DNA of 64,000 bases from Mytilus trossulus (Eukaryota), in NCBI RefSeq assembly GCF_036588685.1, contig NC_086378.1, positions 33,976,001-34,040,000 of the forward strand. Direction: 5' to 3'. Below are positions 1-35,836 of the stretch, piece by piece. Made by a program: the position numbers and the translations under genes. Numbering within the stretch: position 1 is the stretch's first letter; every line of letters starts with the position of its first letter. A model generated the notes under the pieces. It was not told the DNA's origin. It did no database searches and saw only the letters and a list, made by a program, of their open reading frames with translations.

Positions 1-98
1 AAATATCTGGCTTTCTTTTTAATTAACTTCCTTACTCTTACTCTTGTATTTATTTGAGAATTTATATTTCTGAAGGTTTATGAATACGTTCAAAGATC

Positions 99-156
99 AA
101 GTCCGTGCATTTGCCTACATGAAGAGAGAAAATTTCAAAACAAAATGCACGGACTT
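99..156. repeat. 14-bp perfect inverted repeat with 30-nt spacer
   Basis: AAGTCCGTGCATTT (99-112) and AAATGCACGGACTT (143-156). Confidence 0.9.
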
Positions 157-548
157 TTACACACAAAATCTGTAGATTCTGTTATATTCAATTATAGAGG
201 TTTTTTTTTGCGTGGTTTAAGATTAGGTAATGTTCTTGTTTCCGTGTAAAATAATTCTCGCAATATTTTTTTTCTCTCGAAAAGCAAAAGAAATCGTAAA
301 TTTATCAACTCTATTAATTGGAATGAAAGCACTGTTTTGTTCTTCATGATTTATGTATTTACGCTTTGTAGTTTTGACAGACAAATTAAATGCTACAGAA
401 TGAGTGAAATACACGTATATTTGTTATACAGATAGAAAGAAGAGAAAAGTAACCATATACTATTGAAATAGTTTGAAAGTGGTTATAGCTGGGGTTGGGA
501 TTATAGCTTTGTTTAGAAGTTTGACATTGATGTACAACAAATGTAAAT

Positions 549-584
549 TCTTTTTGAAAAATGTTGGTGGCCCTGAAAAGGGCC
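549..584 (-). promoter_or_regulatory. H2B histone 3' stem-loop (569-584) plus HDE
   Basis: GGCCCTTTTCAGGGCC-ACCAA then CAAAAAGA on minus strand. Confidence 0.97.
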
Positions 585-612
585 GTTTGTGAAGTTATAA
601 ACTTCAGACTGT

Positions 613-987
613 TTACTTGCTGCTGGTGTATTTAGTGACGGCTTTGGTACCTTCACTGACAGCGTGCTTGGCCAATTCTCCGGGTAAGAGAAGACGGACA
701 GCGGTCTGGATCTCCCGGGATGTGATGGTAGATCTTTTGTTGTAGTGTGCCAATCGGGAAGCCTCTGCTGCGATTCTCTCGAAGATATCGTTGACGAAGC
801 TGTTCATGATGGACATTGCCTTTGAGGACACTCCGGTGTCGGGGTGAACTTGTCTCAAGACTTTGTAGATGTAGATAGCATAGGATTCACGTCTCTTCCT
901 CCTCCTTTTCTTATCACCGCCGGGTCTGGCAGTCTTTGCCTTGGTGACGGCCTTCTTGGCTCCTTTAGTTCCTACTTTGGGTGGCAT
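613..987 (-). CDS. H2B: Histone H2B (124 aa; true start MPPKVGTK)
   Basis: [19 protein letters not shown]...[10 protein letters not shown]; ATG at 987, the ORF-track extension to 1035 starts at a non-ATG codon in the 5' flank. Confidence 0.99.
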
Positions 988-1641
<654 letters not shown>

Positions 1642-1674
1642 AAAGTGGATATATCGGATTACTCACTTAACAAC

Positions 1675-1710
1675 GGCCCTTTTCAGGGCCACCAATATTT
1701 TTCAAAAAGA
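1675..1710 (+). promoter_or_regulatory. H2A histone 3' stem-loop (1675-1690) plus HDE (1703-1710)
   Basis: 6-bp stem, 4-nt loop SLBP site GGCCCTTTTCAGGGCC; purine-rich CAAAAAGA (U7 pairing site by analogy). Confidence 0.97.
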
Positions 1711-2267
1711 GTCTAAAATTGTTGTACATCTTAGTAATACTTTATTCCCCATACATAATTGAAAAAAATATATTCTACTACATAACAAATAAAAAATGTC
1801 TAAAATATAAATGTCCCTTCTTCCGTGATTCTTCTTTTCTTCTCTCTCTAACGCATCCCATTTAAGTACAGTTCTTATAGCATAACACTAAGTCTAGTAA
1901 CTTTTTCAGTCTTCTTCATCAGAACATTTATTGTCGTACTTTCTGACTCTTTGAACCCACAAGTAGCTCAGTTAAATCATATAATGTTTGTCGGGGGGAA
2001 AAAAAACCACTGATAGTATTTATATTTAATACTAGTCTGCTCTCTTCTTTCTCTCTCTTGGTTATTGATGCGAGCATGCTTAGATTCATCTGAGAAGGTG
2101 TGTGGTTTTTTTTTATTATTATAATTATTTATAGTTTTTGTTAACATTATCTCTTTCGTCAACACTTTTATATATGATATGTACTTTCCATTCTTTTCCT
2201 TTTTCCATTTTTTTCAGCATCTCTCTCTCTGTCTTTCTGTCTTTATTTAGTTATTGTTTGTGTATTA

Positions 2268-2362
2268 AAGATGTGGAATTGATGTAAGCACACCGACAAT
2301 CAGACAATGTGACAAATGTGCCCAGCCCAAATGAAAATCATACCACATCTTCTTTTTTTATA
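2268..2362. mobile_element. Possible short non-autonomous transposon relic
   Basis: AAGATGTGG...CCACATCTT inverted arms, internal degenerate GACAAT repeats; end ATCATACCACATCTTCTTTTTT resembles an abundant mussel interspersed repeat (recalled, not searched). Confidence 0.4.
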
Positions 2363-2732
2363 TTAAATATACATAAATATGACATAATACAACAATAAAG
2401 AAACTCAGCCGATCCGCACAATGTCATGTCGGGAATGTGTAATTCCATTTGTTTCTGTTTTTTTATTTTTATTTCGCTTTGTTTGTGTTATAACTGCATT
2501 TTATTTTTATTTTTTCCTGTTTTTATTTTTCGTTCCTTTCCTTAATGTTTCTGCATGTATTTTGACCTTTTTTCATTATTATTATTTTTCTTCTTCAGAT
2601 TTATCATATTGAAACCGTGACACTAATTTACTATTGTTGAGCTATGAGGGATGATCAGAAACTGTAATTATGAATGAAAAAAGGGGGCATTTTTACTGTC
2701 AGCTTGGGTTGAGCAGTTTTTCAGTAAAAAAT

Positions 2733-3338
<606 letters not shown>

Positions 3339-3367
3339 GAAGTGTGATTTTTTCACCAAAACATAAC

Positions 3368-3403
3368 GGCCCTTTTCAGGGCCACCAATATTTTTCAAAA
3401 AGA
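3368..3403 (+). promoter_or_regulatory. H3 histone 3' stem-loop (3368-3383) plus HDE
   Basis: Same stem-loop and CAAAAAGA. Confidence 0.97.
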
Positions 3404-4509
3404 ATCTATAAATTGTTGTACATGAAAATTAGAAACATAGCCGAACCCCTCTTTTCCCCATCTCTCTCTCTCTCTTTTATTTCTTCTTGTTGAATCCATC
3501 TATATGCAAAGCAATACATAGACAAAAAATAAATTTTATGATATATATATACACACAAGTCTCATCACAAAAAAAAGGGGGGTGTTTGTTTATCATGGTA
3601 CATGTATGTCCTTGTGTGTAGAATATTAAATAGTACATTATATAAAAAAAGATCAACATATAAATGTTTCTATCTGTACTTCTGTTCTTTTCTTTTCTTC
3701 GCTTGTTTTGTCTTGTCTTCTTTTGATGTATTATTTACACCAGTAGTCTAGACCAAAGAAAGAGAACCACCAACTGGCCAAAATATAACCTTTTTTTTTA
3801 AGTTAGAGTTTAAATATCTTGTATAATTCATTAATTTGAATATTTCTTTTAGAAAAGCTGATATTACAGGGTACTTTTATCAAAAATTTAGAGCTCTTTT
3901 TCAGTCAGAATTGTAAAGAATTTTTTTATCATGTATGTAGTAATATATTTTGTCCACTTTAGAGTCTTGTCTTGCTGCTAGTTAACAAAATCATGAAATT
4001 TCTATTTAAATTAATATAATTTCGGTACGGGTCCAAGTAGTCCCCACAAAATTTCAATGTAGGAAGTCCATGTAAGCATATATCTTGCACTTATAAGCTT
4101 TTTTATATGATAAAAAGTGGTTTTCAGACTTATTATAAACTTTTCTGGCTAAAAGAAGTCTTCAGAATAGTAAGTACATGTGTGCGCATTAACATTTTTA
4201 TTGGATTGGCTGATGAAATTGTCATCGTCATACTGTGGATAAATATAGAATGGCGTTTAAAAATAAAATTGAAAGGAAGATGCACACATAAGAAGTTTTA
4301 CCCGCAGTCAGGGGCATCTCTTTTCTTCACTGTAATACCTAGAAAAAAAAATCTTTAATAGTAATAACAGTAACAGTTTTATTCATACATTCTCCCATTT
4401 ATGATCTGAAGTACCTGCAGCAGATCGTTGATGGATGGCAAGCACAGCTTTGACAGATGATGTTGAGTTATGAAAGACAGGTAGAAAACTGCAAGCATGT
4501 AAAATCCTG

Positions 4510-4536
4510 TGATGTATCCAATTTCTGGATACATCA
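4510..4536. repeat. 11-bp perfect hairpin, 5-nt loop
   Basis: TGATGTATCCA atttc TGGATACATCA. Confidence 0.9.
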
Positions 4537-4877
4537 AATAGACAAATAGATAACCAGTATTCCTAGATATGTCTGTGAGGTTTATTTTTTCCCCAACTAA
4601 ATTCCATTCCATTAAGTTGAAATGTGTATTGTCATTGAATGAAAATGTCTGTTCAGAGAAAGCAAATAATTATCTTTATAATTTTGACTGTCTAAAGTGA
4701 TTTTCATTTATCATTTATTTATCATACTATTCTATCTTAAAATGAAAACTTTTCAACATTTTGGAACTTTTTTTGTCTCCTTCAGTCATTTTTATTCCGA
4801 TTGAAATAATAGTTTTTTCTTAAAAATTTACTGTCTGATATGAATTATTATATTTTTCAGACCTAGAATGAAAAAGT

Positions 4878-5373
<496 letters not shown>

Positions 5374-5399
5374 ACAGCCACCCAGCTAATATCAACAAC

Positions 5400-5435
5400 G
5401 GCCCTTTTCAGGGCCACCAACATTTTTCAAAAAGA
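5400..5435 (+). promoter_or_regulatory. H4 histone 3' stem-loop (5400-5415) plus HDE
   Basis: Same stem-loop and CAAAAAGA. Confidence 0.97.
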
Positions 5436-5587
5436 ATCTTAGATTTGTTGTACATCGTTTTAAACAAAATCTTGAAATCAAAGCTTGCTCCCACTTCTAT
5501 TCTTTTCTCTAATGTTCATGAATTTTTCAACCGTTTTTCTTGTTTTCCCTGATCCTGATCCGCAACTATTTTCTCTCTCTCGTTATA

Positions 5588-5614
5588 CCCCCCCCCCCCC
5601 CCCTTTTTTTTTTT
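5588..5614. repeat. C16-T11 homopolymer tract between convergent H4 and H2B 3' ends
   Basis: Direct reading; length varies by 1-2 nt among units. Confidence 0.95.
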
Positions 5615-6226
5615 AAATATCTGGCTTTCTTTTTAATTAACTTCCTTACTCTTACTCTTGTATTTATTTGAGAATTTATATTTCTGAAGGTTTATGAATA
5701 CGTTCAAAGATCAAGTCCGTGCATTTGCCTACATGAAGAGAGAAAATTTCAAAACAAAATGCACGGACTTTTACACACAAAATCTGTAGATTCTGTTATA
5801 TTCAATTATAGAGGTTTTTTTTGCGTGGTTTAAGATTAGGTAATGTTCTTGTTTCCGTGTAAAATAATTCTCGCAATATTTTTTTTCTCTCGAAAAGCAA
5901 AAGAAATCGTAAATTTATCAACTCTATTAATTGGAATGAAAGCACTGTTTTGTTCTTCATGATTTATGTATTTACGCTTTGTAGTTTTGACAGACAAATT
6001 AAATGCTACAGAATGAGTGAAATACACGTATATTTGTTATACAGATAGAAAGAAGAGAAAAGTAACCATATACTATTGAAATAGTTTGAAAGTGGTTATA
6101 GCTGGGGTTGGGATTTATAGCTTTGTTTAGAAGTTTGACATTGATGTACAACAAATGTAAATTCTTTTTGAAAAATGTTGGTGGCCCTGAAAAGGGCCGT
6201 TTGTGAAGTTATAAACTTCAGACTGT

Positions 6227-6601
6227 TTACTTGCTGCTGGTGTATTTAGTGACGGCTTTGGTACCTTCACTGACAGCGTGCTTGGCCAATTCTCCGGGTA
6301 AGAGAAGACGGACAGCGGTCTGGATCTCCCGGGATGTGATGGTAGATCTTTTGTTGTAGTGTGCCAATCGGGAAGCCTCTGCTGCGATTCTCTCGAAGAT
6401 ATCGTTGACGAAGCTGTTCATGATGGACATTGCCTTTGAGGACACTCCGGTGTCGGGGTGAACTTGTCTCAAGACTTTGTAGATGTAGATAGCATAGGAT
6501 TCACGTCTCTTCCTCCTCCTTTTCTTATCACCGCCGGGTCTGGCAGTCTTTGCCTTGGTGACGGCCTTCTTGGCTCCTTTAGTTCCTACTTTGGGTGGCA
6601 T
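6227..6601 (-). CDS. H2B: Histone H2B
   Basis: Identical translation to first copy. Confidence 0.99.
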
Positions 6602-6871
6602 GTTACTGGTTTGATAATCAAATAAGTAATGGTGAAAAATTATTTTCAATTTGTTTATATACTGGGCAAAACGGATTGAAAGATTTTATTAAACGCGAAC
6701 CTCGGAGAGAGCACCCATAACATGTTGAATGTTCGGTAGCCTAACTGCTCGCAGAGAGCTTCGTTCTGATTGGTGTATAATAAAAACATCGTTCAATCCG
6801 TTTAGTGGGTATATAAGCTAAATTTTGAAGAAAAATTGTATCACTTTACTCAGTGTCGATCAACCAAATAG

Positions 6872-7255
<384 letters not shown>

Positions 7256-8436
7256 AAAGTGGATATATCGGATTACTCACTTAACAACGGCCCTTTTCAG
7301 GGCCACCAATATTTTTCAAAAAGAGTCTAAAATTGTTGTACATCTTAGTAATACTTTATTCCCCATACATAATTGAAAAAAATATATTCTACTACATAAC
7401 AAATAAAAAATGTCTAAAATATAAATGTCCCTTCTTCCGTGATTCTTCTTTTCTTCTCTCTCTAACGCATCCCATTTAAGTACAGTTCTTATAGCATAAC
7501 ACTAAGTCTAGTAACTTTTTCAGTCTTCTTCATCAGAACATTTATTGTCGTACTTTCTGACTCTTTGAACCCACAAGTAGCTCAGTTAAATCATATAATG
7601 TTTGTCGGGGGGAAAAAAAACCACTGATAGTATTTATATTTAATACTAGTCTGCTCTCTTCTTTCTCTCTCTTGGTTATTGATGCGAGCATGCTTAGATT
7701 CATCTGAGAAGGTGTGTGGTTTTTTTTTATTATTATAATTATTTATAGTTTTTGTTAACATTATCTCTTTCGTCAACACTTTTATATATGATATGTACTT
7801 TCCATTCTTTTCCTTTTTCCATTTTTTTCAGCATCTCTCTCTCTGTCTTTCTGTCTTTATTTAGTTATTGTTTGTGTATTAAAGATGTGGAATTGATGTA
7901 AGCACACCGACAATCAGACAATGTGACAAATGTGCCCAGCCCAAATGAAAATCATACCACATCTTCTTTTTTTATATTAAATATACATAAATATGACATA
8001 ATACAACAATAAAGAAACTCAGCCGATCCGCACAATGTCATGTCGGGAATGTGTAATTCCATTTGTTTCTGTTTTTTTATTTTTATTTCGCTTTGTTTGT
8101 GTTATAACTGCATTTTATTTTTATTTTTTCCTGTTTTTATTTTTCGTTCCTTTCCTTAATGTTTCTGCATGTATTTTGACCTTTTTTCATTATTATTATT
8201 TTTCTTCTTCAGATTTATCATATTGAAACCGTGACACTAATTTACTATTGTTGAGCTATGAGGGATGATCAGAAACTGTAATTATGAATGAAAAAAGGGG
8301 GCATTTTTACTGTCAGCTTGGGTTGAGCAGTTTTTCAGTAAAAAATGGATTGAAAACTGTCAAAGTCCCTTACAAATCAGTCCAATCAGATTTAAGATAT
8401 GCGGACCAATCAACGCCAGCTTTATGTAAGTGGTGA

Positions 8437-8952
<516 letters not shown>

Positions 8953-10669
8953 GAAGTGTGATTTTTTCACCAAAACATAACGGCCCTTTTCAGGGCCACC
9001 AATATTTTTCAAAAAGAATCTATAAATTGTTGTACATGAAAATTAGAAACATAGCCGAACCCCTCTTTTCCCCATCTCTCTCTCTCTCTTTTATTTCTTC
9101 TTGTTGAATCCATCTATATGCAAAGCAATACATAGACAAAAAATAAATTTTATGATATATATATACACACAAGTCTCATCACAAAAAAAAGGGGGGTGTT
9201 TGTTTATCATGGTACATGTATGTCCTTGTGTGTAGAATATTAAATAGTACATTATATAAAAAAAGATCAACATATAAATGTTTCTATCTGTACTTCTGTT
9301 CTTTTCTTTTCTTCGCTTGTTTTGTCTTGTCTTCTTTTGATGTATTATTTACACCAGTAGTCTAGACCAAAGAAAGAGAACCACCAACTGGCCAAAATAT
9401 AACCTTTTTTTTTAAGTTAGAGTTTAAATATCTTGTATAATTCATTAATTTGAATATTTCTTTTAGAAAAGCTGATATTACAGGGTACTTTTATCAAAAA
9501 TTTAGAGCTCTTTTTCAGTCAGAATTGTAAAGAATTTTTTTATCATGTATGTAGTAATATATTTTGTCCACTTTAGAGTCTTGTCTTGCTGCTAGTTAAC
9601 AAAATCATGAAATTTCTATTTAAATTAATATAATTTCGGTACGGGTCCAAGTAGTCCCCACAAAATTTCAATGTAGGAAGTCCATGTAAGCATATATCTT
9701 GCACTTATAAGCTTTTTTATATGATAAAAAGTGGTTTTCAGACTTATTATAAACTTTTCTGGCTAAAAGAAGTCTTCAGAATAGTAAGTACATGTGTGCG
9801 CATTAACATTTTTATTGGATTGGCTGATGAAATTGTCATCGTCATACTGTGGATAAATATAGAATGGCGTTTAAAAATAAAATTGAAAGGAAGATGCACA
9901 CATAAGAAGTTTTACCCGCAGTCAGGGGCATCTCTTTTCTTCACTGTAATACCTAGAAAAAAAAATCTTTAATAGTAATAACAGTAACAGTTTTATTCAT
10001 ACATTCTCCCATTTATGATCTGAAGTACCTGCAGCAGATCGTTGATGGATGGCAAGCACAGCTTTGACAGATGATGTTGAGTTATGAAAGACAGGTAGAA
10101 AACTGCAAGCATGTAAAATCCTGTGATGTATCCAATTTCTGGATACATCAAATAGACAAATAGATAACCAGTATTCCTAGATATGTCTGTGAGGTTTATT
10201 TTTTCCCCAACTAAATTCCATTCCATTAAGTTGAAATGTGTATTGTCATTGAATGAAAATGTCTGTTCAGAGAAAGCAAATAATTATCTTTATAATTTTG
10301 ACTGTCTAAAGTGATTTTCATTTATCATTTATTTATCATACTATTCTATCTTAAAATGAAAACTTTTCAACATTTTGGAACTTTTTTTGTCTCCTTCAGT
10401 CATTTTTATTCCGATTGAAATAATAGTTTTTTCTTAAAAATTTACTGTCTGATATGAATTATTATATTTTTCAGACCTAGAATGAAAAAGTGGATTGAAA
10501 GTGTACACAGTTTAAGGCAGTACAGAGTTACCTCCCGGAATAAAACAACGTAAGCCAATCAGACAACAGTTAACTGAAAATGTGTGATACTTCTTTTACG
10601 GCCGCGTTGGTGATATATAAAGAGTCGCTGTTAGACGGAAAGTATTATTTAACTAATCACCACAAATAG

Positions 10670-10987
<318 letters not shown>

Positions 10988-11842
10988 ACAGCCACCCAGC
11001 TAATATCAACAACGGCCCTTTTCAGGGCCACCAACATTTTTCAAAAAGAATCTTAGATTTGTTGTACATCGTTTTAAACAAAATCTTGAAATCAAAGCTT
11101 GCTCCCACTTCTATTCTTTTCTCTAATGTTCATGAATTTTTCAACCGTTTTTCTTGTTTTCCCTGATCCTGATCCGCAACTATTTTCTCTCTCTCGTTAT
11201 ACACCCCCCCCCCCCCCCCTTTTTTTTTTTAAATATCTGGCTTTCTTTTTAATTAACTTCCTTACTCTTACTCTTGTATTTATTTGAGAATTTATATTTC
11301 TGAAGGTTTATGAATACGTTCAAAGATCAAGTCCGTGCATTTGCCTACATGAAGAGAGAAAATTTCAAAACAAAATGCACGGACTTTTACACACAAAATC
11401 TGTAGATTCTGTTATATTCAATTATAGAGGTTTTTTTTGCGTGGTTTAAGATTAGGTAATGTTCTTGTTTCCGTGTAAAATAATTCTCGCAATATTTTTT
11501 TTCTCTCGAAAAGCAAAAGAAATCGTAAATTTATCAACTCTATTAATTGGAATGAAAGCACTGTTTTGTTCTTCATGATTTATGTATTTACGCTTTGTAG
11601 TTTTGACAGACAAATTAAATGCTACAGAATGAGTGAAATACACGTATATTTGTTATACAGATAGAAAGAAGAGAAAAGTAACCATATACTATTGAAATAG
11701 TTTGAAAGTGGTTATAGCTGGGGTTGGGATTTATAGCTTTGTTTAGAAGTTTGACATTGATGTACAACAAATGTAAATTCTTTTTGAAAAATGTTGGTGG
11801 CCCTGAAAAGGGCCGTTTGTGAAGTTATAAACTTCAGACTGT

Positions 11843-12217
11843 TTACTTGCTGCTGGTGTATTTAGTGACGGCTTTGGTACCTTCACTGACAGCGTGCTTG
11901 GCCAATTCTCCGGGTAAGAGAAGACGGACAGCGGTCTGGATCTCCCGGGATGTGATGGTAGATCTTTTGTTGTAGTGTGCCAATCGGGAAGCCTCTGCTG
12001 CGATTCTCTCGAAGATATCGTTGACGAAGCTGTTCATGATGGACATTGCCTTTGAGGACACTCCGGTGTCGGGGTGAACTTGTCTCAAGACTTTGTAGAT
12101 GTAGATAGCATAGGATTCACGTCTCTTCCTCCTCCTTTTCTTATCACCGCCGGGTCTGGCAGTCTTTGCCTTGGTGACGGCCTTCTTGGCTCCTTTAGTT
12201 CCTACTTTGGGTGGCAT
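11843..12217 (-). CDS. H2B: Histone H2B
   Basis: Identical translation. Confidence 0.99.
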
Positions 12218-12487
12218 GTTACTGGTTTGATAATCAAATAAGTAATGGTGAAAAATTATTTTCAATTTGTTTATATACTGGGCAAAACGGATTGAAAGAT
12301 TTTATTAAACGCGAACCTCGGAGAGAGCACCCATAACATGTTGAATGTTCGGTAGCCTAACTGCTCGCAGAGAGCTTCGTTCTGATTGGTGTATAATAAA
12401 AACATCGTTCAATCCGTTTAGTGGGTATATAAGCTAAATTTTGAAGAAAAATTGTATCACTTTACTCAGTGTCGATCAACCAAATAG

Positions 12488-12871
<384 letters not shown>

Positions 12872-14052
12872 AAAGTGGATATATCGGATTACTCACTTAA
12901 CAACGGCCCTTTTCAGGGCCACCAATATTTTTCAAAAAGAGTCTAAAATTGTTGTACATCTTAGTAATACTTTATTCCCCATACATAATTGAAAAAAATA
13001 TATTCTACTACATAACAAATAAAAAATGTCTAAAATATAAATGTCCCTTCTTCCGTGATTCTTCTTTTCTTCTCTCTCTAACGCATCCCATTTAAGTACA
13101 GTTCTTATAGCATAACACTAAGTCTAGTAACTTTTTCAGTCTTCTTCATCAGAACATTTATTGTCGTACTTTCTGACTCTTTGAACCCACAAGTAGCTCA
13201 GTTAAATCATATAATGTTTGTCGGGGGGAAAAAAAACCACTGATAGTATTTATATTTAATACTAGTCTGCTCTCTTCTTTCTCTCTCTTGGTTATTGATG
13301 CGAGCATGCTTAGATTCATCTGAGAAGGTGTGTGGTTTTTTTTTATTATTATAATTATTTATAGTTTTTGTTAACATTATCTCTTTCGTCAACACTTTTA
13401 TATATGATATGTACTTTCCATTCTTTTCCTTTTTCCATTTTTTTCAGCATCTCTCTCTCTGTCTTTCTGTCTTTATTTAGTTATTGTTTGTGTATTAAAG
13501 ATGTGGAATTGATGTAAGCACACCGACAATCAGACAATGTGACAAATGTGCCCAGCCCAAATGAAAATCATACCACATCTTCTTTTTTTATATTAAATAT
13601 ACATAAATATGACATAATACAACAATAAAGAAACTCAGCCGATCCGCACAATGTCATGTCGGGAATGTGTAATTCCATTTGTTTCTGTTTTTTTATTTTT
13701 ATTTCGCTTTGTTTGTGTTATAACTGCATTTTATTTTTATTTTTTCCTGTTTTTATTTTTCGTTCCTTTCCTTAATGTTTCTGCATGTATTTTGACCTTT
13801 TTTCATTATTATTATTTTTCTTCTTCAGATTTATCATATTGAAACCGTGACACTAATTTACTATTGTTGAGCTATGAGGGATGATCAGAAACTGTAATTA
13901 TGAATGAAAAAAGGGGGCATTTTTACTGTCAGCTTGGGTTGAGCAGTTTTTCAGTAAAAAATGGATTGAAAACTGTCAAAGTCCCTTACAAATCAGTCCA
14001 ATCAGATTTAAGATATGCGGACCAATCAACGCCAGCTTTATGTAAGTGGTGA

Positions 14053-14568
<516 letters not shown>

Positions 14569-16285
14569 GAAGTGTGATTTTTTCACCAAAACATAACGGC
14601 CCTTTTCAGGGCCACCAATATTTTTCAAAAAGAATCTATAAATTGTTGTACATGAAAATTAGAAACATAGCCGAACCCCTCTTTTCCCCATCTCTCTCTC
14701 TCTCTTTTATTTCTTCTTGTTGAATCCATCTATATGCAAAGCAATACATAGACAAAAAATAAATTTTATGATATATATATACACACAAGTCTCATCACAA
14801 AAAAAAGGGGGGTGTTTGTTTATCATGGTACATGTATGTCCTTGTGTGTAGAATATTAAATAGTACATTATATAAAAAAAGATCAACATATAAATGTTTC
14901 TATCTGTACTTCTGTTCTTTTCTTTTCTTCGCTTGTTTTGTCTTGTCTTCTTTTGATGTATTATTTACACCAGTAGTCTAGACCAAAGAAAGAGAACCAC
15001 CAACTGGCCAAAATATAACCTTTTTTTTTAAGTTAGAGTTTAAATATCTTGTATAATTCATTAATTTGAATATTTCTTTTAGAAAAGCTGATATTACAGG
15101 GTACTTTTATCAAAAATTTAGAGCTCTTTTTCAGTCAGAATTGTAAAGAATTTTTTTATCATGTATGTAGTAATATATTTTGTCCACTTTAGAGTCTTGT
15201 CTTGCTGCTAGTTAACAAAATCATGAAATTTCTATTTAAATTAATATAATTTCGGTACGGGTCCAAGTAGTCCCCACAAAATTTCAATGTAGGAAGTCCA
15301 TGTAAGCATATATCTTGCACTTATAAGCTTTTTTATATGATAAAAAGTGGTTTTCAGACTTATTATAAACTTTTCTGGCTAAAAGAAGTCTTCAGAATAG
15401 TAAGTACATGTGTGCGCATTAACATTTTTATTGGATTGGCTGATGAAATTGTCATCGTCATACTGTGGATAAATATAGAATGGCGTTTAAAAATAAAATT
15501 GAAAGGAAGATGCACACATAAGAAGTTTTACCCGCAGTCAGGGGCATCTCTTTTCTTCACTGTAATACCTAGAAAAAAAAATCTTTAATAGTAATAACAG
15601 TAACAGTTTTATTCATACATTCTCCCATTTATGATCTGAAGTACCTGCAGCAGATCGTTGATGGATGGCAAGCACAGCTTTGACAGATGATGTTGAGTTA
15701 TGAAAGACAGGTAGAAAACTGCAAGCATGTAAAATCCTGTGATGTATCCAATTTCTGGATACATCAAATAGACAAATAGATAACCAGTATTCCTAGATAT
15801 GTCTGTGAGGTTTATTTTTTCCCCAACTAAATTCCATTCCATTAAGTTGAAATGTGTATTGTCATTGAATGAAAATGTCTGTTCAGAGAAAGCAAATAAT
15901 TATCTTTATAATTTTGACTGTCTAAAGTGATTTTCATTTATCATTTATTTATCATACTATTCTATCTTAAAATGAAAACTTTTCAACATTTTGGAACTTT
16001 TTTTGTCTCCTTCAGTCATTTTTATTCCGATTGAAATAATAGTTTTTTCTTAAAAATTTACTGTCTGATATGAATTATTATATTTTTCAGACCTAGAATG
16101 AAAAAGTGGATTGAAAGTGTACACAGTTTAAGGCAGTACAGAGTTACCTCCCGGAATAAAACAACGTAAGCCAATCAGACAACAGTTAACTGAAAATGTG
16201 TGATACTTCTTTTACGGCCGCGTTGGTGATATATAAAGAGTCGCTGTTAGACGGAAAGTATTATTTAACTAATCACCACAAATAG

Positions 16286-16603
<318 letters not shown>

Positions 16604-17455
16604 ACAGCCACCCAGCTAATATCAACAACGGCCCTTTTCAGGGCCACCAACATTTTTCAAAAAGAATCTTAGATTTGTTGTACATCGTTTTAAACAAAAT
16701 CTTGAAATCAAAGCTTGCTCCCACTTCTATTCTTTTCTCTAATGTTCATGAATTTTTCAACCGTTTTTCTTGTTTTCCCTGATCCTGATCCGCAACTATT
16801 TTCTCTCTCTCGTTATACCCCCCCCCCCCCCCTTTTTTTTTTTAAATATCTGGCTTTCTTTTTAATTAACTTCCTTACTCTTACTCTTGTATTTATTTGA
16901 GAATTTATATTTCTGAAGGTTTATGAATACGTTCAAAGATCAAGTCCGTGCATTTGCCTACATGAAGAGAGAAAATTTCAAAACAAAATGCACGGACTTT
17001 TACACACAAAATCTGTAGATTCTGTTATATTCAATTATAGAGGTTTTTTTTGCGTGGTTTAAGATTAGGTAATGTTCTTGTTTCCGTGTAAAATAATTCT
17101 CGCAATATTTTTTTTCTCTCGAAAAGCAAAAGAAATCGTAAATTTATCAACTCTATTAATTGGAATGAAAGCACTGTTTTGTTCTTCATGATTTATGTAT
17201 TTACGCTTTGTAGTTTTGACAGACAAATTAAATGCTACAGAATGAGTGAAATACACGTATATTTGTTATACAGATAGAAAGAAGAGAAAAGTAACCATAT
17301 ACTATTGAAATAGTTTGAAAGTGGTTATAGCTGGGGTTGGGATTTATAGCTTTGTTTAGAAGTTTGACATTGATGTACAACAAATGTAAATTCTTTTTGA
17401 AAAATGTTGGTGGCCCTGAAAAGGGCCGTTTGTGAAGTTATAAACTTCAGACTGT

Positions 17456-17830
17456 TTACTTGCTGCTGGTGTATTTAGTGACGGCTTTGGTACCTTCACT
17501 GACAGCGTGCTTGGCCAATTCTCCGGGTAAGAGAAGACGGACAGCGGTCTGGATCTCCCGGGATGTGATGGTAGATCTTTTGTTGTAGTGTGCCAATCGG
17601 GAAGCCTCTGCTGCGATTCTCTCGAAGATATCGTTGACGAAGCTGTTCATGATGGACATTGCCTTTGAGGACACTCCGGTGTCGGGGTGAACTTGTCTCA
17701 AGACTTTGTAGATGTAGATAGCATAGGATTCACGTCTCTTCCTCCTCCTTTTCTTATCACCGCCGGGTCTGGCAGTCTTTGCCTTGGTGACGGCCTTCTT
17801 GGCTCCTTTAGTTCCTACTTTGGGTGGCAT
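17456..17830 (-). CDS. H2B: Histone H2B
   Basis: Identical translation. Confidence 0.99.
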
Positions 17831-18100
17831 GTTACTGGTTTGATAATCAAATAAGTAATGGTGAAAAATTATTTTCAATTTGTTTATATACTGGGCAAAA
17901 CGGATTGAAAGATTTTATTAAACGCGAACCTCGGAGAGAGCACCCATAACATGTTGAATGTTCGGTAGCCTAACTGCTCGCAGAGAGCTTCGTTCTGATT
18001 GGTGTATAATAAAAACATCGTTCAATCCGTTTAGTGGGTATATAAGCTAAATTTTGAAGAAAAATTGTATCACTTTACTCAGTGTCGATCAACCAAATAG

Positions 18101-18484
<384 letters not shown>

Positions 18485-19665
18485 AAAGTGGATATATCGG
18501 ATTACTCACTTAACAACGGCCCTTTTCAGGGCCACCAATATTTTTCAAAAAGAGTCTAAAATTGTTGTACATCTTAGTAATACTTTATTCCCCATACATA
18601 ATTGAAAAAAATATATTCTACTACATAACAAATAAAAAATGTCTAAAATATAAATGTCCCTTCTTCCGTGATTCTTCTTTTCTTCTCTCTCTAACGCATC
18701 CCATTTAAGTACAGTTCTTATAGCATAACACTAAGTCTAGTAACTTTTTCAGTCTTCTTCATCAGAACATTTATTGTCGTACTTTCTGACTCTTTGAACC
18801 CACAAGTAGCTCAGTTAAATCATATAATGTTTGTCGGGGGGAAAAAAAACCACTGATAGTATTTATATTTAATACTAGTCTGCTCTCTTCTTTCTCTCTC
18901 TTGGTTATTGATGCGAGCATGCTTAGATTCATCTGAGAAGGTGTGTGGTTTTTTTTTATTATTATAATTATTTATAGTTTTTGTTAACATTATCTCTTTC
19001 GTCAACACTTTTATATATGATATGTACTTTCCATTCTTTTCCTTTTTCCATTTTTTTCAGCATCTCTCTCTCTGTCTTTCTGTCTTTATTTAGTTATTGT
19101 TTGTGTATTAAAGATGTGGAATTGATGTAAGCACACCGACAATCAGACAATGTGACAAATGTGCCCAGCCCAAATGAAAATCATACCACATCTTCTTTTT
19201 TTATATTAAATATACATAAATATGACATAATACAACAATAAAGAAACTCAGCCGATCCGCACAATGTCATGTCGGGAATGTGTAATTCCATTTGTTTCTG
19301 TTTTTTTATTTTTATTTCGCTTTGTTTGTGTTATAACTGCATTTTATTTTTATTTTTTCCTGTTTTTATTTTTCGTTCCTTTCCTTAATGTTTCTGCATG
19401 TATTTTGACCTTTTTTCATTATTATTATTTTTCTTCTTCAGATTTATCATATTGAAACCGTGACACTAATTTACTATTGTTGAGCTATGAGGGATGATCA
19501 GAAACTGTAATTATGAATGAAAAAAGGGGGCATTTTTACTGTCAGCTTGGGTTGAGCAGTTTTTCAGTAAAAAATGGATTGAAAACTGTCAAAGTCCCTT
19601 ACAAATCAGTCCAATCAGATTTAAGATATGCGGACCAATCAACGCCAGCTTTATGTAAGTGGTGA

Positions 19666-20181
<516 letters not shown>

Positions 20182-21898
20182 GAAGTGTGATTTTTTCACC
20201 AAAACATAACGGCCCTTTTCAGGGCCACCAATATTTTTCAAAAAGAATCTATAAATTGTTGTACATGAAAATTAGAAACATAGCCGAACCCCTCTTTTCC
20301 CCATCTCTCTCTCTCTCTTTTATTTCTTCTTGTTGAATCCATCTATATGCAAAGCAATACATAGACAAAAAATAAATTTTATGATATATATATACACACA
20401 AGTCTCATCACAAAAAAAAGGGGGGTGTTTGTTTATCATGGTACATGTATGTCCTTGTGTGTAGAATATTAAATAGTACATTATATAAAAAAAGATCAAC
20501 ATATAAATGTTTCTATCTGTACTTCTGTTCTTTTCTTTTCTTCGCTTGTTTTGTCTTGTCTTCTTTTGATGTATTATTTACACCAGTAGTCTAGACCAAA
20601 GAAAGAGAACCACCAACTGGCCAAAATATAACCTTTTTTTTTAAGTTAGAGTTTAAATATCTTGTATAATTCATTAATTTGAATATTTCTTTTAGAAAAG
20701 CTGATATTACAGGGTACTTTTATCAAAAATTTAGAGCTCTTTTTCAGTCAGAATTGTAAAGAATTTTTTTATCATGTATGTAGTAATATATTTTGTCCAC
20801 TTTAGAGTCTTGTCTTGCTGCTAGTTAACAAAATCATGAAATTTCTATTTAAATTAATATAATTTCGGTACGGGTCCAAGTAGTCCCCACAAAATTTCAA
20901 TGTAGGAAGTCCATGTAAGCATATATCTTGCACTTATAAGCTTTTTTATATGATAAAAAGTGGTTTTCAGACTTATTATAAACTTTTCTGGCTAAAAGAA
21001 GTCTTCAGAATAGTAAGTACATGTGTGCGCATTAACATTTTTATTGGATTGGCTGATGAAATTGTCATCGTCATACTGTGGATAAATATAGAATGGCGTT
21101 TAAAAATAAAATTGAAAGGAAGATGCACACATAAGAAGTTTTACCCGCAGTCAGGGGCATCTCTTTTCTTCACTGTAATACCTAGAAAAAAAAATCTTTA
21201 ATAGTAATAACAGTAACAGTTTTATTCATACATTCTCCCATTTATGATCTGAAGTACCTGCAGCAGATCGTTGATGGATGGCAAGCACAGCTTTGACAGA
21301 TGATGTTGAGTTATGAAAGACAGGTAGAAAACTGCAAGCATGTAAAATCCTGTGATGTATCCAATTTCTGGATACATCAAATAGACAAATAGATAACCAG
21401 TATTCCTAGATATGTCTGTGAGGTTTATTTTTTCCCCAACTAAATTCCATTCCATTAAGTTGAAATGTGTATTGTCATTGAATGAAAATGTCTGTTCAGA
21501 GAAAGCAAATAATTATCTTTATAATTTTGACTGTCTAAAGTGATTTTCATTTATCATTTATTTATCATACTATTCTATCTTAAAATGAAAACTTTTCAAC
21601 ATTTTGGAACTTTTTTTGTCTCCTTCAGTCATTTTTATTCCGATTGAAATAATAGTTTTTTCTTAAAAATTTACTGTCTGATATGAATTATTATATTTTT
21701 CAGACCTAGAATGAAAAAGTGGATTGAAAGTGTACACAGTTTAAGGCAGTACAGAGTTACCTCCCGGAATAAAACAACGTAAGCCAATCAGACAACAGTT
21801 AACTGAAAATGTGTGATACTTCTTTTACGGCCGCGTTGGTGATATATAAAGAGTCGCTGTTAGACGGAAAGTATTATTTAACTAATCACCACAAATAG

Positions 21899-22184
<286 letters not shown>

Positions 22185-22284
22185 NNNNNNNNNNNNNNNN
22201 NNNNNNNNNNNNNNNNNNNNNNNNNNNNNNNNNNNNNNNNNNNNNNNNNNNNNNNNNNNNNNNNNNNNNNNNNNNNNNNNNNNN
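22185..22284. other. Assembly gap (100 N)
   Basis: Exactly 100 Ns, a typical unknown-size scaffold placeholder. Confidence 0.99.
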
Positions 22285-22414
22285 ATATTTTTTTCAATTA
22301 TGTATGGGGAATAAAGTATTACTAAGATGTACAACAATTTTAGACTCTTTTTGAAAAATATTGGTGGCCCTGAAAAGGGCCGTTGTTAAGTGAGTAATCC
22401 GATATATCCACTTT

Positions 22415-22798
<384 letters not shown>

Positions 22799-23068
22799 CT
22801 ATTTGGTTGATCGACACTGAGTAAAGTGATACAATTTTTCTTCAAAATTTAGCTTATATACCCACTAAACGGATTGAACGATGTTTTTATTATACACCAA
22901 TCAGAACGAAGCTCTCTGCGAGCAGTTAGGCTACCGAACATTCAACATGTTATGGGTGCTCTCTCCGAGGTTCGCGTTTAATAAAATCTTTCAATCCGTT
23001 TTGCCCAGTATATAAACAAATTGAAAATAATTTTTCACCATTACTTATTTGATTATCAAACCAGTAAC

Positions 23069-23443
23069 ATGCCACCCAAAGTAGGAACTAAAGGAGCCAA
23101 GAAGGCCGTCACCAAGGCAAAGACTGCCAGACCCGGCGGTGATAAGAAAAGGAGGAGGAAGAGACGTGAATCCTATGCTATCTACATCTACAAAGTCTTG
23201 AGACAAGTTCACCCCGACACCGGAGTGTCCTCAAAGGCAATGTCCATCATGAACAGCTTCGTCAACGATATCTTCGAGAGAATCGCAGCAGAGGCTTCCC
23301 GATTGGCACACTACAACAAAAGATCTACCATCACATCCCGGGAGATCCAGACCGCTGTCCGTCTTCTCTTACCCGGAGAATTGGCCAAGCACGCTGTCAG
23401 TGAAGGTACCAAAGCCGTCACTAAATACACCAGCAGCAAGTAA
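23069..23443 (+). CDS. H2B: Histone H2B
   Basis: Identical translation. Confidence 0.99.
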
Positions 23444-24295
23444 ACAGTCTGAAGTTTATAACTTCACAAACGGCCCTTTTCAGGGCCACCAACATTTTTC
23501 AAAAAGAATTTACATTTGTTGTACATCAATGTCAAACTTCTAAACAAAGCTATAAATCCCAACCCCAGCTATAACCACTTTCAAACTATTTCAATAGTAT
23601 ATGGTTACTTTTCTCTTCTTTCTATCTGTATAACAAATATACGTGTATTTCACTCATTCTGTAGCATTTAATTTGTCTGTCAAAACTACAAAGCGTAAAT
23701 ACATAAATCATGAAGAACAAAACAGTGCTTTCATTCCAATTAATAGAGTTGATAAATTTACGATTTCTTTTGCTTTTCGAGAGAAAAAAAATATTGCGAG
23801 AATTATTTTACACGGAAACAAGAACATTACCTAATCTTAAACCACGCAAAAAAAACCTCTATAATTGAATATAACAGAATCTACAGATTTTGTGTGTAAA
23901 AGTCCGTGCATTTTGTTTTGAAATTTTCTCTCTTCATGTAGGCAAATGCACGGACTTGATCTTTGAACGTATTCATAAACCTTCAGAAATATAAATTCTC
24001 AAATAAATACAAGAGTAAGAGTAAGGAAGTTAATTAAAAAGAAAGCCAGATATTTAAAAAAAAAAAGGGGGGGGGGGGGGGTATAACGAGAGAGAGAAAA
24101 TAGTTGCGGATCAGGATCAGGGAAAACAAGAAAAACGGTTGAAAAATTCATGAACATTAGAGAAAAGAATAGAAGTGGGAGCAAGCTTTGATTTCAAGAT
24201 TTTGTTTAAAACGATGTACAACAAATCTAAGATTCTTTTTGAAAAATGTTGGTGGCCCTGAAAAGGGCCGTTGTTGATATTAGCTGGGTGGCTGT

Positions 24296-24613
<318 letters not shown>

Positions 24614-26330
24614 CTATTTGTGGTGATTAGTTAAATAATACTTTCCGTCTAACAGCGACTCTTTATATATCACCAACGCGGCCGTAAAAGAAGTATCACA
24701 CATTTTCAGTTAACTGTTGTCTGATTGGCTTACGTTGTTTTATTCCGGGAGGTAACTCTGTACTGCCTTAAACTGTGTACACTTTCAATCCACTTTTTCA
24801 TTCTAGGTCTGAAAAATATAATAATTCATATCAGACAGTAAATTTTTAAGAAAAAACTATTATTTCAATCGGAATAAAAATGACTGAAGGAGACAAAAAA
24901 AGTTCCAAAATGTTGAAAAGTTTTCATTTTAAGATAGAATAGTATGATAAATAAATGATAAATGAAAATCACTTTAGACAGTCAAAATTATAAAGATAAT
25001 TATTTGCTTTCTCTGAACAGACATTTTCATTCAATGACAATACACATTTCAACTTAATGGAATGGAATTTAGTTGGGGAAAAAATAAACCTCACAGACAT
25101 ATCTAGGAATACTGGTTATCTATTTGTCTATTTGATGTATCCAGAAATTGGATACATCACAGGATTTTACATGCTTGCAGTTTTCTACCTGTCTTTCATA
25201 ACTCAACATCATCTGTCAAAGCTGTGCTTGCCATCCATCAACGATCTGCTGCAGGTACTTCAGATCATAAATGGGAGAATGTATGAATAAAACTGTTACT
25301 GTTATTACTATTAAAGATTTTTTTTTCTAGGTATTACAGTGAAGAAAAGAGATGCCCCTGACTGCGGGTAAAACTTCTTATGTGTGCATCTTCCTTTCAA
25401 TTTTATTTTTAAACGCCATTCTATATTTATCCACAGTATGACGATGACAATTTCATCAGCCAATCCAATAAAAATGTTAATGCGCACACATGTACTTACT
25501 ATTCTGAAGACTTCTTTTAGCCAGAAAAGTTTATAATAAGTCTGAAAACCACTTTTTATCATATAAAAAAGCTTATAAGTGCAAGATATATGCTTACATG
25601 GACTTCCTACATTGAAATTTTGTGGGGACTACTTGGACCCGTACCGAAATTATATTAATTTAAATAGAAATTTCATGATTTTGTTAACTAGCAGCAAGAC
25701 AAGACTCTAAAGTGGACAAAATATATTACTACATACATGATAAAAAAATTCTTTACAATTCTGACTGAAAAAGAGCTCTAAATTTTTGATAAAAGTACCC
25801 TGTAATATCAGCTTTTCTAAAAGAAATATTCAAATTAATGAATTATACAAGATATTTAAACTCTAACTTAAAAAAAAAGGTTATATTTTGGCCAGTTGGT
25901 GGTTCTCTTTCTTTGGTCTAGACTACTGGTGTAAATAATACATCAAAAGAAGACAAGACAAAACAAGCGAAGAAAAGAAAAGAACAGAAGTACAGATAGA
26001 AACATTTATATGTTGATCTTTTTTTATATAATGTACTATTTAATATTCTACACACAAGGACATACATGTACCATGATAAACAAACACCCCCCTTTTTTTT
26101 GTGATGAGACTTGTGTGTATATATATATCATAAAATTTATTTTTTGTCTATGTATTGCTTTGCATATAGATGGATTCAACAAGAAGAAATAAAAGAGAGA
26201 GAGAGAGATGGGGAAAAGAGGGGTTCGGCTATGTTTCTAATTTTCATGTACAACAATTTATAGATTCTTTTTGAAAAATATTGGTGGCCCTGAAAAGGGC
26301 CGTTATGTTTTGGTGAAAAAATCACACTTC

Positions 26331-26828
<498 letters not shown>

Positions 26829-28026
26829 TCACGGTGACGATTGGATCACCACTTACATAAAGCTGGCGTTGATTGGTCCGCATATCTTAAATCTGATTGG
26901 ACTGATTTGTAAGGGACTTTGACAGTTTTCAATCCATTTTTTACTGAAAAACTGCTCAACCCAAGCTGACAGTAAAAATGCCCCCTTTTTTCATTCATAA
27001 TTACAGTTTCTGATCATCCCTCATAGCTCAACAATAGTAAATTAGTGTCACGGTTTCAATATGATAAATCTGAAGAAGAAAAATAATAATAATGAAAAAA
27101 GGTCAAAATACATGCAGAAACATTAAGGAAAGGAACGAAAAATAAAAACAGGAAAAAATAAAAATAAAATGCAGTTATAACACAAACAAAGCGAAATAAA
27201 AATAAAAAAACAGAAACAAATGGAATTACACATTCCCGACATGACATTGTGCGGATCGGCTGAGTTTCTTTATTGTTGTATTATGTCATATTTATGTATA
27301 TTTAATATAAAAAAAGAAGATGTGGTATGATTTTCATTTGGGCTGGGCACATTTGTCACATTGTCTGATTGTCGGTGTGCTTACATCAATTCCACATCTT
27401 TAATACACAAACAATAACTAAATAAAGACAGAAAGACAGAGAGAGAGATGCTGAAAAAAATGGAAAAAGGAAAAGAATGGAAAGTACATATCATATATAA
27501 AAGTGTTGACGAAAGAGATAATGTTAACAAAAACTATAAATAATTATAATAATAAAAAAAAACCACACACCTTCTCAGATGAATCTAAGCATGCTCGCAT
27601 CAATAACCAAGAGAGAGAAAGAAGAGAGCAGACTAGTATTAAATATAAATACTATCAGTGGTTTTTTTTCCCCCCGACAAACATTATATGATTTAACTGA
27701 GCTACTTGTGGGTTCAAAGAGTCAGAAAGTACGACAATAAATGTTCTGATGAAGAAGACTGAAAAAGTTACTAGACTTAGTGTTATGCTATAAGAACTGT
27801 ACTTAAATGGGATGCGTTAGAGAGAGAAGAAAAGAAGAATCACGGAAGAAGGGACATTTATATTTTAGACATTTTTTATTTGTTATGTAGTAGAATATAT
27901 TTTTTTCAATTATGTATGGGGAATAAAGTATTACTAAGATGTACAACAATTTTAGACTCTTTTTGAAAAATATTGGTGGCCCTGAAAAGGGCCGTTGTTA
28001 AGTGAGTAATCCGATATATCCACTTT

Positions 28027-28410
<384 letters not shown>

Positions 28411-28680
28411 CTATTTGGTTGATCGACACTGAGTAAAGTGATACAATTTTTCTTCAAAATTTAGCTTATATACCCACTAAACGGATTGAACGATGTTTTT
28501 ATTATACACCAATCAGAACGAAGCTCTCTGCGAGCAGTTAGGCTACCGAACATTCAACATGTTATGGGTGCTCTCTCCGAGGTTCGCGTTTAATAAAATC
28601 TTTCAATCCGTTTTGCCCAGTATATAAACAAATTGAAAATAATTTTTCACCATTACTTATTTGATTATCAAACCAGTAAC

Positions 28681-29055
28681 ATGCCACCCAAAGTAGGAAC
28701 TAAAGGAGCCAAGAAGGCCGTCACCAAGGCAAAGACTGCCAGACCCGGCGGTGATAAGAAAAGGAGGAGGAAGAGACGTGAATCCTATGCTATCTACATC
28801 TACAAAGTCTTGAGACAAGTTCACCCCGACACCGGAGTGTCCTCAAAGGCAATGTCCATCATGAACAGCTTCGTCAACGATATCTTCGAGAGAATCGCAG
28901 CAGAGGCTTCCCGATTGGCACACTACAACAAAAGATCTACCATCACATCCCGGGAGATCCAGACCGCTGTCCGTCTTCTCTTACCCGGAGAATTGGCCAA
29001 GCACGCTGTCAGTGAAGGTACCAAAGCCGTCACTAAATACACCAGCAGCAAGTAA
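28681..29055 (+). CDS. H2B: Histone H2B
   Basis: Identical translation. Confidence 0.99.
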
Positions 29056-29907: not shown

Positions 29908-30225
<318 letters not shown>

Positions 30226-31942: not shown

Positions 31943-32458
<516 letters not shown>

Positions 32459-33637: not shown

Positions 33638-34021
<384 letters not shown>

Positions 34022-34291
34022 CTATTTGGTTGATCGACACTGAGTAAAGTGATACAATTTTTCTTCAAAATTTAGCTTATATACCCACTAAACGGATTGA
34101 ACGATGTTTTTATTATACACCAATCAGAACGAAGCTCTCTGCGAGCAGTTAGGCTACCGAACATTCAACATGTTATGGGTGCTCTCTCCGAGGTTCGCGT
34201 TTAATAAAATCTTTCAATCCGTTTTGCCCAGTATATAAACAAATTGAAAATAATTTTTCACCATTACTTATTTGATTATCAAACCAGTAAC

Positions 34292-35518: not shown

Positions 35519-35836
<318 letters not shown>

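What the first reader, a model, noticed from the sequence alone, without database searches (positions are those of the whole stretch)
1719..1729. Invariant TTGTTGTACAT element 28-29 nt downstream of the stem-loop in all four histone genes, beyond the HDE
Seen: after stem-loop + ACCAAYATTTTTCAAAAAGA, each gene has 8-9 variable nt and then the identical 11-mer TTGTTGTACAT: H2B 530-540 (minus, gap 28), H2A 1719-1729 (gap 28), H3 3413-3423 (gap 29), H4 5445-5455 (gap 29). Sequence diverges immediately afterwards. Established: canonical histone 3' processing uses two cis elements, the stem-loop (SLBP) and the HDE (U7 snRNA). Inference: an identical, positionally fixed third element in four otherwise unrelated 3' flanks implies selection. 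It could be a second pairing site for a 5'-extended U7 (predicted to contain AUGUACAACAA...AUUCUUUUUGAA), a GU-rich CstF64 or UGUA CFIm25 site coupling to the cleavage complex or a polyadenylation fallback, or a DNA termination site (TGTACA is palindromic). Local gene conversion among 3' ends is the alternative explanation.
Basis: partly seen in the sequence, partly recalled or inferred. Interest (0 to 1): 0.72.

Follow-up and report, generated by a model that had tools for sequence, protein, structure and literature searches.

The report
Third histone end-signal shared with transposons
In this mussel a short extra motif sits at a fixed place behind the two known end-signals of histone genes, and behind the same signals on several transposon and other non-histone genes; it is likely the far half of an unusually long docking site for the small RNA (U7) that guides the cutting of histone messages, but that RNA's gene was not found.

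Summary
In detail: all 45 histone stem-loops in the window carry the 11-mer 27-29 nt downstream. It is not local gene conversion. The core UGUUG recurs 8-12 nt behind the HDE at unlinked H1 and PL-II genes, two Tc1-like and three KolobokP-like transposase families, a BEN-domain ORF, a Maverick-like locus and a coiled-coil gene family, including 10 of 10 cassettes found without using the motif. Only the core is invariant; the 11-mer is the core-histone form. HDE, linker and motif form one ~29-nt consensus that stays intact even where the stem-loop is lost. Best reading (0.55): the distal half of a long HDE that pairs with the 5' end of a long U7 guide. An Lsm10 gene is present, but 17 searches found no U7 gene, so pairing is inferred. 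Main rival: a CstF64-type GU site (0.25). This scan had already noted non-histone genes with histone ends in this and other genomes. The distal motif and the Tc1/KolobokP transposase cases did not appear in my three look-ups or my literature searches.

The parts
1264..1641 (+). H2A coding sequence
1675..1690 (+). H2A histone stem-loop (SLBP site); cut predicted after 1695
   Evidence: Rfam RF00032, 40.8 bits; cut site inferred from the known 5-nt rule
1701..1710 (+). H2A HDE core
   Evidence: near-invariant in 36 cassettes
1711..1718 (+). H2A linker, semi-conserved (R-U-Y-U then purine/A); length varies by 1-2 nt between genes
1719..1729 (+). H2A distal element (the finding); core 1719-1725
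3368..3383 (+). H3 stem-loop
3394..3403 (+). H3 HDE core
3413..3423 (+). H3 distal element
5400..5415 (+). H4 stem-loop
5426..5435 (+). H4 HDE core
5445..5455 (+). H4 distal element
569..584 (-). H2B stem-loop
549..558 (-). H2B HDE core
530..540 (-). H2B distal element
1..64000 (.). about 11 tandem ~5.6-kb core-histone repeats, in two orientations, each gene with the same three-part 3' signal

Best explanation
The motif is the distal part of a ~29-nt downstream signal (HDE core, linker, UGUUG core, CAU tail) that follows histone-type stem-loops throughout this mussel genome, and it likely base-pairs with the 5' end of a long mussel U7 snRNA guide. Shown: position, strand, genome-wide linkage to the HDE, presence on non-histone and transposon genes, near-absence from steady-state histone RNA, and an intact Lsm10 gene. 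Inferred: SLBP binds the hairpin, U7 pairs with both the HDE core and the distal motif across a 1-2-nt bulge, and CPSF73 cuts about 5 nt after the stem. The longer duplex would steady an AU-rich guide. Tc1-like and KolobokP-like transposons and other non-histone genes that carry the whole cassette would make tail-less, S-phase-timed mRNAs by the same route.
For: (1) 10 of 10 non-redundant cassettes found without using the motif carry the 5-nt core at +25..+37; background rate 0.0. 27 of 27 own-genome clusters carry it, but many of these were found with it. (2) HDE and motif stay together as a ~38-nt island in a four-copy family whose flanks diverged and whose stem-loop is lost in 3 of 4 copies. 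(3) Several substitutions fit G-U wobble against an RNA partner: C/U 29:7 with no transversions at linker +3, and G/A 33:3 in the core; A-to-G changes in the HDE A-run in 9 of 9 KolobokP derivatives, a single inherited event. (5) Conservation ends at CAU in 18 of 36 cassettes against 9% background, as expected if the duplex stops at an snRNA 5' end; mussel U2 starts AU. (6) Another animal's histone cluster has a different motif, G-Y-U-G, at +29..+31 in 5 of 5 genes (L635); lineage-specific sequence is how a guide RNA behaves. (7) Lsm10 is present: best PDB hit LSm10 at E 1.6e-9, next 6.7e-5. (8) Precedent: Drosophila U7 has a longer guide and can form a 21-bp duplex (PMC5961079 and PMC7026596, passages). 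(9) Sense depth on H2A falls from 178 at 1623 to 1 at 1692 in run X20.
Against: No U7 gene was found by Rfam or by 16 pattern searches. Some of these should have caught a continuous complement of both parts and were inspected in full (38, 53, 57, 64); others were inspected only in part. This also shows that no U7 of any form was found, so the negative does not single out the distal arm. Transitions are the commonest mutations, so the wobble pattern is weak; linker +1 has 6 U among 36, and the A positions before the core vary mostly by transversion. The core is GU-rich and lies 23-25 nt after the predicted cut, where a CstF64 site would be. One ~37-copy array has UUGCUG, which is not wobble-compatible. 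No RNA end was mapped; reads on the non-histone array were too few (12-49 per run) and no reads were laid on a transposon.
Confidence: 0.55

Rival explanations
1. The motif is a protein site, most likely for the CstF64 RRM carried in the histone cleavage complex (or another GU-binding protein), which would clamp the pre-mRNA just beyond a normal short U7 duplex.
For: The core is GU-rich and lies 23-25 nt after the predicted cut. CstF64 is stably in the histone complex with unknown role and prefers G/U-rich RNA (PMC7614891, passages). Spacing varies over 8-12 nt. GUUG-like words at about +30 occur in several unrelated animals. No U7 with a matching arm was found.
Against: CstF64 sites are degenerate, whereas UGUU is fixed here. 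The linker and CAU tail are also conserved. 59 of 65 stem-loop sites from other animals lack the core, although CstF64 is conserved. CstF64 was dispensable in vitro (PMC9756948 and PMC7026596, passages), and CSTF2tau CLIP peaks on human replication-dependent histones lie at the 5' end (PMC5449641, passages).
Confidence: 0.25
2. A second small RNA, distinct from U7, pairs with the motif, in the way Y3** has been proposed to assist histone processing in mammals.
For: It would explain strict sequence conservation and the absence of a single locus complementary to both parts. Y3** precedent seen only as an abstract listing (PMC4841609).
Against: No candidate was found. The linker between the two parts is conserved as well, which fits one continuous guide.
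Confidence: 0.08
3. The motif acts in DNA or on elongating Pol II as a pause or termination site, together with a weak further A/U-AGC-Y element that resembles the U2 3' flank.
For: The weak element lies at +45..+80 in 8 of 27 own clusters (shuffle mean 1.8); U2 genes have a similar word downstream.
Against: The motif is always on the sense strand at a near-fixed distance from the HDE, and the palindromic part is lost in H1 and other carriers.
Confidence: 0.07
4. The motif is a neutral relic of conversion or capture of one histone 3' end.
For: Histone arrays evolve in concert, and transposons can capture host DNA.
Against: Flanks on both sides differ among carriers. The motif is kept in transposase families only 49-62% identical in protein, at unlinked loci, in related species and after loss of the stem-loop.
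Confidence: 0.03

Closest known systems
Histone downstream element / U7 snRNP system (SLBP, Lsm10/11, FLASH, CPSF73; Rfam RF00032, RF00066)
   Same: Stem-loop above the Rfam cut-off, purine-rich HDE 11 nt after the stem, Lsm10 present, RNA depth ending at the stem-loop.
   Different: The conserved span is ~29 nt and bipartite, against ~15 nt in mammals (PMC7026596 and PMC7614891, passages). It is near-invariant rather than loosely conserved. No U7 gene was identified.
Drosophila long-guide U7 (71 nt)
   Same: AU-rich guide longer than the mammalian one; up to 21 bp is possible (PMC5961079, passage).
   Different: Drosophila HDEs pair poorly and in alternative registers; here the distal part is strongly fixed, and the predicted duplex is longer still.
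Canonical GU-rich downstream sequence element bound by CstF64
   Same: GU-rich, downstream of the cut.
   Different: No poly(A) signal is part of the cassette, the sequence is fixed, and it is tied to an HDE.
KolobokP transposons (Kojima and Bao 2022, PMC9587614, passages read)
   Same: L069-L071 are 4.5-kb elements with 464-bp direct terminal repeats, a PF20700 transposase and a His-Me finger nuclease on the other strand.
   Different: The transposase ends 30-42 nt before a histone stem-loop + HDE + distal motif in three families; the paper's main text has 0 occurrences of 'histone' or 'stem-loop' (supplements not read).
Tc1/mariner-like DDE transposons
   Same: DDE_3 and HTH_Tnp_Tc3_2 domains; 19 near-identical cassette copies on 10 contigs.
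   Different: The ORFs end 27-50 nt before a histone-type cassette. Distant Tc1-like elements in other metagenome contigs (23-36% identical) end in stem-loop + HDE with other tails.

Membership tests
Replication-dependent histone 3' end signal | 16-nt stem-loop shortly after the stop codon | tested here: met
Replication-dependent histone 3' end signal | purine-rich HDE 10-15 nt downstream of the stem | tested here: met
Replication-dependent histone 3' end signal | mature RNA ends at the stem-loop | tested here: inconclusive
   depth falls to about 0 at the stem-loop, but the exact end was not mapped
Histone downstream element (distal motif as part of it) | complementary to the 5' end of the species' U7 snRNA | tested here: inconclusive
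   no U7 gene found in 17 searches
Histone downstream element (distal motif as part of it) | U7-specific Sm ring encoded | tested here: met
   Lsm10 ORF in two copies; Lsm11 not tested
Histone downstream element (distal motif as part of it) | mutation blocks cleavage and a compensatory U7 restores it | not testable with these tools
   bench test
CstF64 downstream sequence element | G/U-rich and downstream of a cleavage site | tested here: met
CstF64 downstream sequence element | bound by CstF64 | not testable with these tools
   needs CLIP or binding assay
CFIm25 UGUA site | UGUA kept and upstream of the cut | tested here: not met
   lies downstream; UGUA absent from H1 and about half of the carriers
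KolobokP (for L069-L071) | ~450-bp long terminal direct repeats, DDD/E transposase, His-Me finger nuclease | tested here: met
KolobokP (for L069-L071) | short TIRs inside the LTDRs, target-site duplication, tree placement | not tested
   not run
Tc1/mariner (for L011 and L290 families) | DDE_3 plus Tc3-type HTH | tested here: met
Tc1/mariner (for L011 and L290 families) | terminal inverted repeats and TA duplication | tested here: inconclusive
   no clear TIR; copies compared were rearranged

The most novel reading that the evidence does not exclude
Mussel U7 snRNP reads a bipartite ~29-nt target, about twice the mammalian duplex. DNA transposons (Tc1-like, KolobokP-like) and other non-histone genes have adopted the full host-specific cassette to make tail-less, S-phase-timed mRNAs. 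HDE + distal-motif islands without a stem-loop are SLBP-independent U7 cut sites.
Probability: 0.35. Interest if true: 0.85.

Novelty: new variant of a known kind. Interest (0 to 1): 0.62.

Why it matters
No mollusc U7 snRNA turned up in the literature searches, and U7 is hard to find outside a few groups (PMC5054213, parts 1-2 read). The extended consensus gives a ~29-nt probe for finding it and a direct compensatory-mutation test. The motif also works as a host-specific tag that exposes non-histone users of the pathway. Replication-dependent histone mRNAs are described as the only cellular non-polyadenylated mRNAs (PMC4604434, abstract listing). Transposases timed to S phase by SLBP/U7 would be a new way for selfish elements to use host RNA processing, and this fits the replication-linked model proposed for KolobokP (PMC9587614, passage).

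Tried and rejected
U7 search. Rfam RF00066 gave 11 matches, none over the cut-off; the best (L001, E 0.36) has a shorter U-run, no match to the distal motif and no promoter element at the U2/U11 distance. Pattern searches, inspected k of n: 20 of 30 as loci plus 4 more, the rest the same strings as known families, 31 of 31, 3 by matched string, 36 of 36, 30 of 241 (H1 array; only 100 listed), 34 of 34, 48 of 48, 13 of 13, 48 loci covering the 100 of 101 listed, saturated by one array (100 of 278 listed); strings, 20 fetched, 43 strings, 98 strings, 20 newly fetched, 30 of 189, 50 of 104. All hits inspected were antisense target sites, repeats or chance.

Intramolecular pairing with the cleavage-site flank: rejected. 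CFIm25 and palindrome readings: rejected. IMG/VR gave 4 matches with an 11-nt gap that I did not open and no relative of the coiled-coil family. That family has no Pfam hit, one unnamed Atlas cluster at 0.87 and no fold match at E<=0.001. Reads on its array were too few to place an end.

Not-in-print claims rest on searches. Davila Lopez and Samuelsson 2008, Dominski 2003, Romeo 2014 and Townley-Tilson 2006 were not held. The older Mytilus histone-cluster papers (recalled) were not read and could show this motif in their figures. No supplements were read.

Full report
Observation. The window is a tandem core-histone array at G000:C6:33976001-34040000 in a 1.3-Gb genome. Close protein homologues are named Mytilus, so I call it a mussel. 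All 45 stem-loops have the 11-mer downstream, 28-29 nt away in 43 and 27 nt in 2. The 11-mer alone is common (4799 against 3367 control), but HDE plus distal motif gives 657 matches against 4.

Not local conversion. Patterns meant to find U7 found more targets instead. The same three-part cassette follows: the sperm H1-like PL-II gene on C2; an H1 + 5S array on C1, with a 2-nt shorter motif; two Tc1-like families, 56% identical; three related transposase families, 49-62% identical, two with PF20700 hits, of which one was shown to have 464-bp direct repeats and a His-Me nuclease as in KolobokP; a BEN-domain ORF; an ORF beside a weak A32-type ATPase hit in a Maverick-like stretch; and a family of ~110-aa helical-hairpin proteins in tandem arrays, with 1102 clusters at 50% identity and members in oysters. 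Earlier notes of this scan had already reported such non-histone genes and a Polinton case. I use them as leads only.

How invariant. Of 328 sites held at that point, 57 non-redundant clusters remained; 27 of 27 own-genome clusters have UGUU(G/A) 8-12 nt after the HDE G. Many were found with the motif, so I counted again only those found by stem-loop, HDE or homology: 10 of 10, background 0.0. That filter dropped L366 and L391 (variant HDE; both have the motif), L372 (hairpin only, no HDE, no motif), L426 (degenerate), the C14 array (variant hairpin, UUGCUG) and nine KolobokP derivatives (A-to-G changes in the HDE, motif intact in 8 of 9). In metagenome contigs found by stem-loop + HDE only (78 loci), 11 of 30 metagenome-only clusters have the motif. 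Nine of these I grouped by hand as mussel-like after seeing them, so that 9 of 9 is partly circular. They include histone clusters with different flanks and different 3' tails. In host-derived histone clusters of other animals (67 of 79 loci examined), 6 of 65 sites have the 4-nt core; one host has its own G-Y-U-G word at +29..+31 in 5 of 5 genes. The motif is therefore lineage-specific, and a distal conserved word at this distance is not unique to mussels.

Anatomy. HDE core (1701-1710), linker (R-U-Y-U then purine/A), core (1719-1725) and tail (CAU within 4 nt in 18 of 36 against 9% background) form one ~29-nt consensus with 1-2-nt length play. It has no stable fold of its own and does not covary with the flank near the cut, so it is read in trans. 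In a four-copy non-coding family the HDE + motif block is an island of identity while the hairpin is lost in three copies; this ties the motif to the HDE reader rather than to SLBP. In stranded RNA runs X20 and X22 the histone genes are well covered and depth falls to near zero at the hairpin, so the motif acts on pre-mRNA or DNA. The exact end was not mapped.

Mechanism. Established: U7 pairs with the HDE over about 15 nt in mammals (PMC7026596 and PMC7614891, passages); strong duplexes allow SLBP-independent cleavage in mammalian extracts (PMC3884669, passage); Drosophila U7 can form 21 bp (PMC5961079, passage). An intact Lsm10 gene is present here. I infer that mussel U7 has a longer guide whose 5' end pairs with the motif. 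Wobble-compatible variation, the stop at CAU and lineage specificity favour this, each weakly. Against it, 17 searches found no U7 gene of any kind; several were exhaustive for a continuous complement, others were not (see Tried and rejected). The gene may be missing from the assembly, or its guide may differ from the inferred one. A CstF64-type site is the main rival: the motif is GU-rich, lies 23-25 nt after the predicted cut, and CstF64 is in the complex with no known role.

Transposons. The cassette is internal: in L069 it lies between the transposase and the convergent nuclease gene, about 750 nt inside the right repeat. Distant Tc1-like ORFs in other metagenome contigs end 17-32 nt before a stem-loop (three tested above the Rfam cut-off) and an HDE with different tails. 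This suggests matching to each host's machinery; it is inferred, and no transposon RNA was examined.

What is known. The KolobokP paper's main text does not mention histone ends. A 2026 preprint on the evolution of this pathway has no mollusc or Mytilus mention (10.64898/2026.10.14.759114, passages). A bivalve histone paper notes only hairpin and purine-rich elements (PMC6210712, passage). A 2026 review has no HDE mention (PMC13525598, passages). PMC5011920 (passages) added nothing. Searches gave no report of the motif, of a mollusc U7 or of transposases with histone ends. Older Mytilus papers and Davila Lopez and Samuelsson 2008 could not be read, and no supplements were seen.

Verdict. This is a real, selected element, most likely the far half of a long HDE, and so a new variant of a known system. 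Its main value is as a probe for the missing mollusc U7 and as a tag that shows transposons carrying the host's histone 3' signal. Interest 0.62.

Noticed in passing
L011/L067 (G000:C2:12.57 Mb, 19 copies on 10 contigs) and L290 (C7:1.95 Mb): Two Tc1-like transposase families end in a histone stem-loop + HDE + distal motif.
   Followed up: partly
L069-L071, L273, L366 (arrays at C1:16.0 and 22.3 Mb), L717-L725: KolobokP-like elements carry the cassette after the transposase; shorter derivatives have A-to-G changes in the HDE.
   Followed up: partly
L123, L129, L137, L152, L162 (metagenome contigs): Tc1-like transposases from other hosts end in a perfect histone stem-loop + HDE with no mussel motif.
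   Followed up: partly
L392-L394 (C1:24.04-24.18 Mb, at least 96 copies), L233, L280, L281, L296, L424, L444, L447: Intronless ~110-aa helical-hairpin genes with CCAAT/TATA-like promoter words and histone 3' ends; large unnamed family, weakly expressed in the runs laid.
   Followed up: partly
L445, L446, L157: BEN-domain ORFs ending in the full cassette.
   Followed up: partly
L066:3866-4240 (C5:51.27 Mb), L139: An ORF in a Maverick-like stretch (weak Pox_A32 hit nearby) ends in the full cassette.
   Followed up: partly
L023/L065, L064, L030/L062, L063: Non-coding four-copy family in which HDE + distal motif are kept while the stem-loop is lost in three copies.
   Followed up: partly
L439 (C14:62.28-62.42 Mb, about 37 copies, 3-kb unit): Array with a variant stem-loop, HDE and UUGCUG motif and no ORF of 70 aa or more on that strand.
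   Followed up: no
window 3438-3442, 5481-5485, 505-509 (-); U2 flanks in L105-L110: A weak fourth word (A/U-AGC-Y) 45-80 nt after the stem in 8 of 27 clusters resembles the word downstream of U2 genes.
   Followed up: partly
L105-L110, L543-L545: U2 and U11 genes share an ACC promoter word exactly 58 nt before the start.
   Followed up: partly
L242-L271 (C1:4.77-5.11 Mb): H1 genes form a separate 2.34-kb tandem array, each unit with two 5S rRNA genes.
   Followed up: yes
L084, L215, L348, L365, L373, L391: Dispersed family with the cassette but no ORF before it; run X23 has reads that appear to cross such a site uncut (loose ends at 1672).
   Followed up: no
L635-L648 (host-derived contigs): Another animal's histone quintet has its own distal word at +29..+31 in all five genes.
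   Followed up: partly
window 22185-22284 and 42592-42691; 37508-40318: Two 100-N assembly gaps, an orientation switch near 22.3 kb, and copies with single-base deletions (frameshifted H3 and H2A) around 37.5-40.3 kb.
   Followed up: no
runs X20 and X22: About half of the H2A and H4 reads come from a second histone cluster type, 90-95% identical to this one.
   Followed up: no
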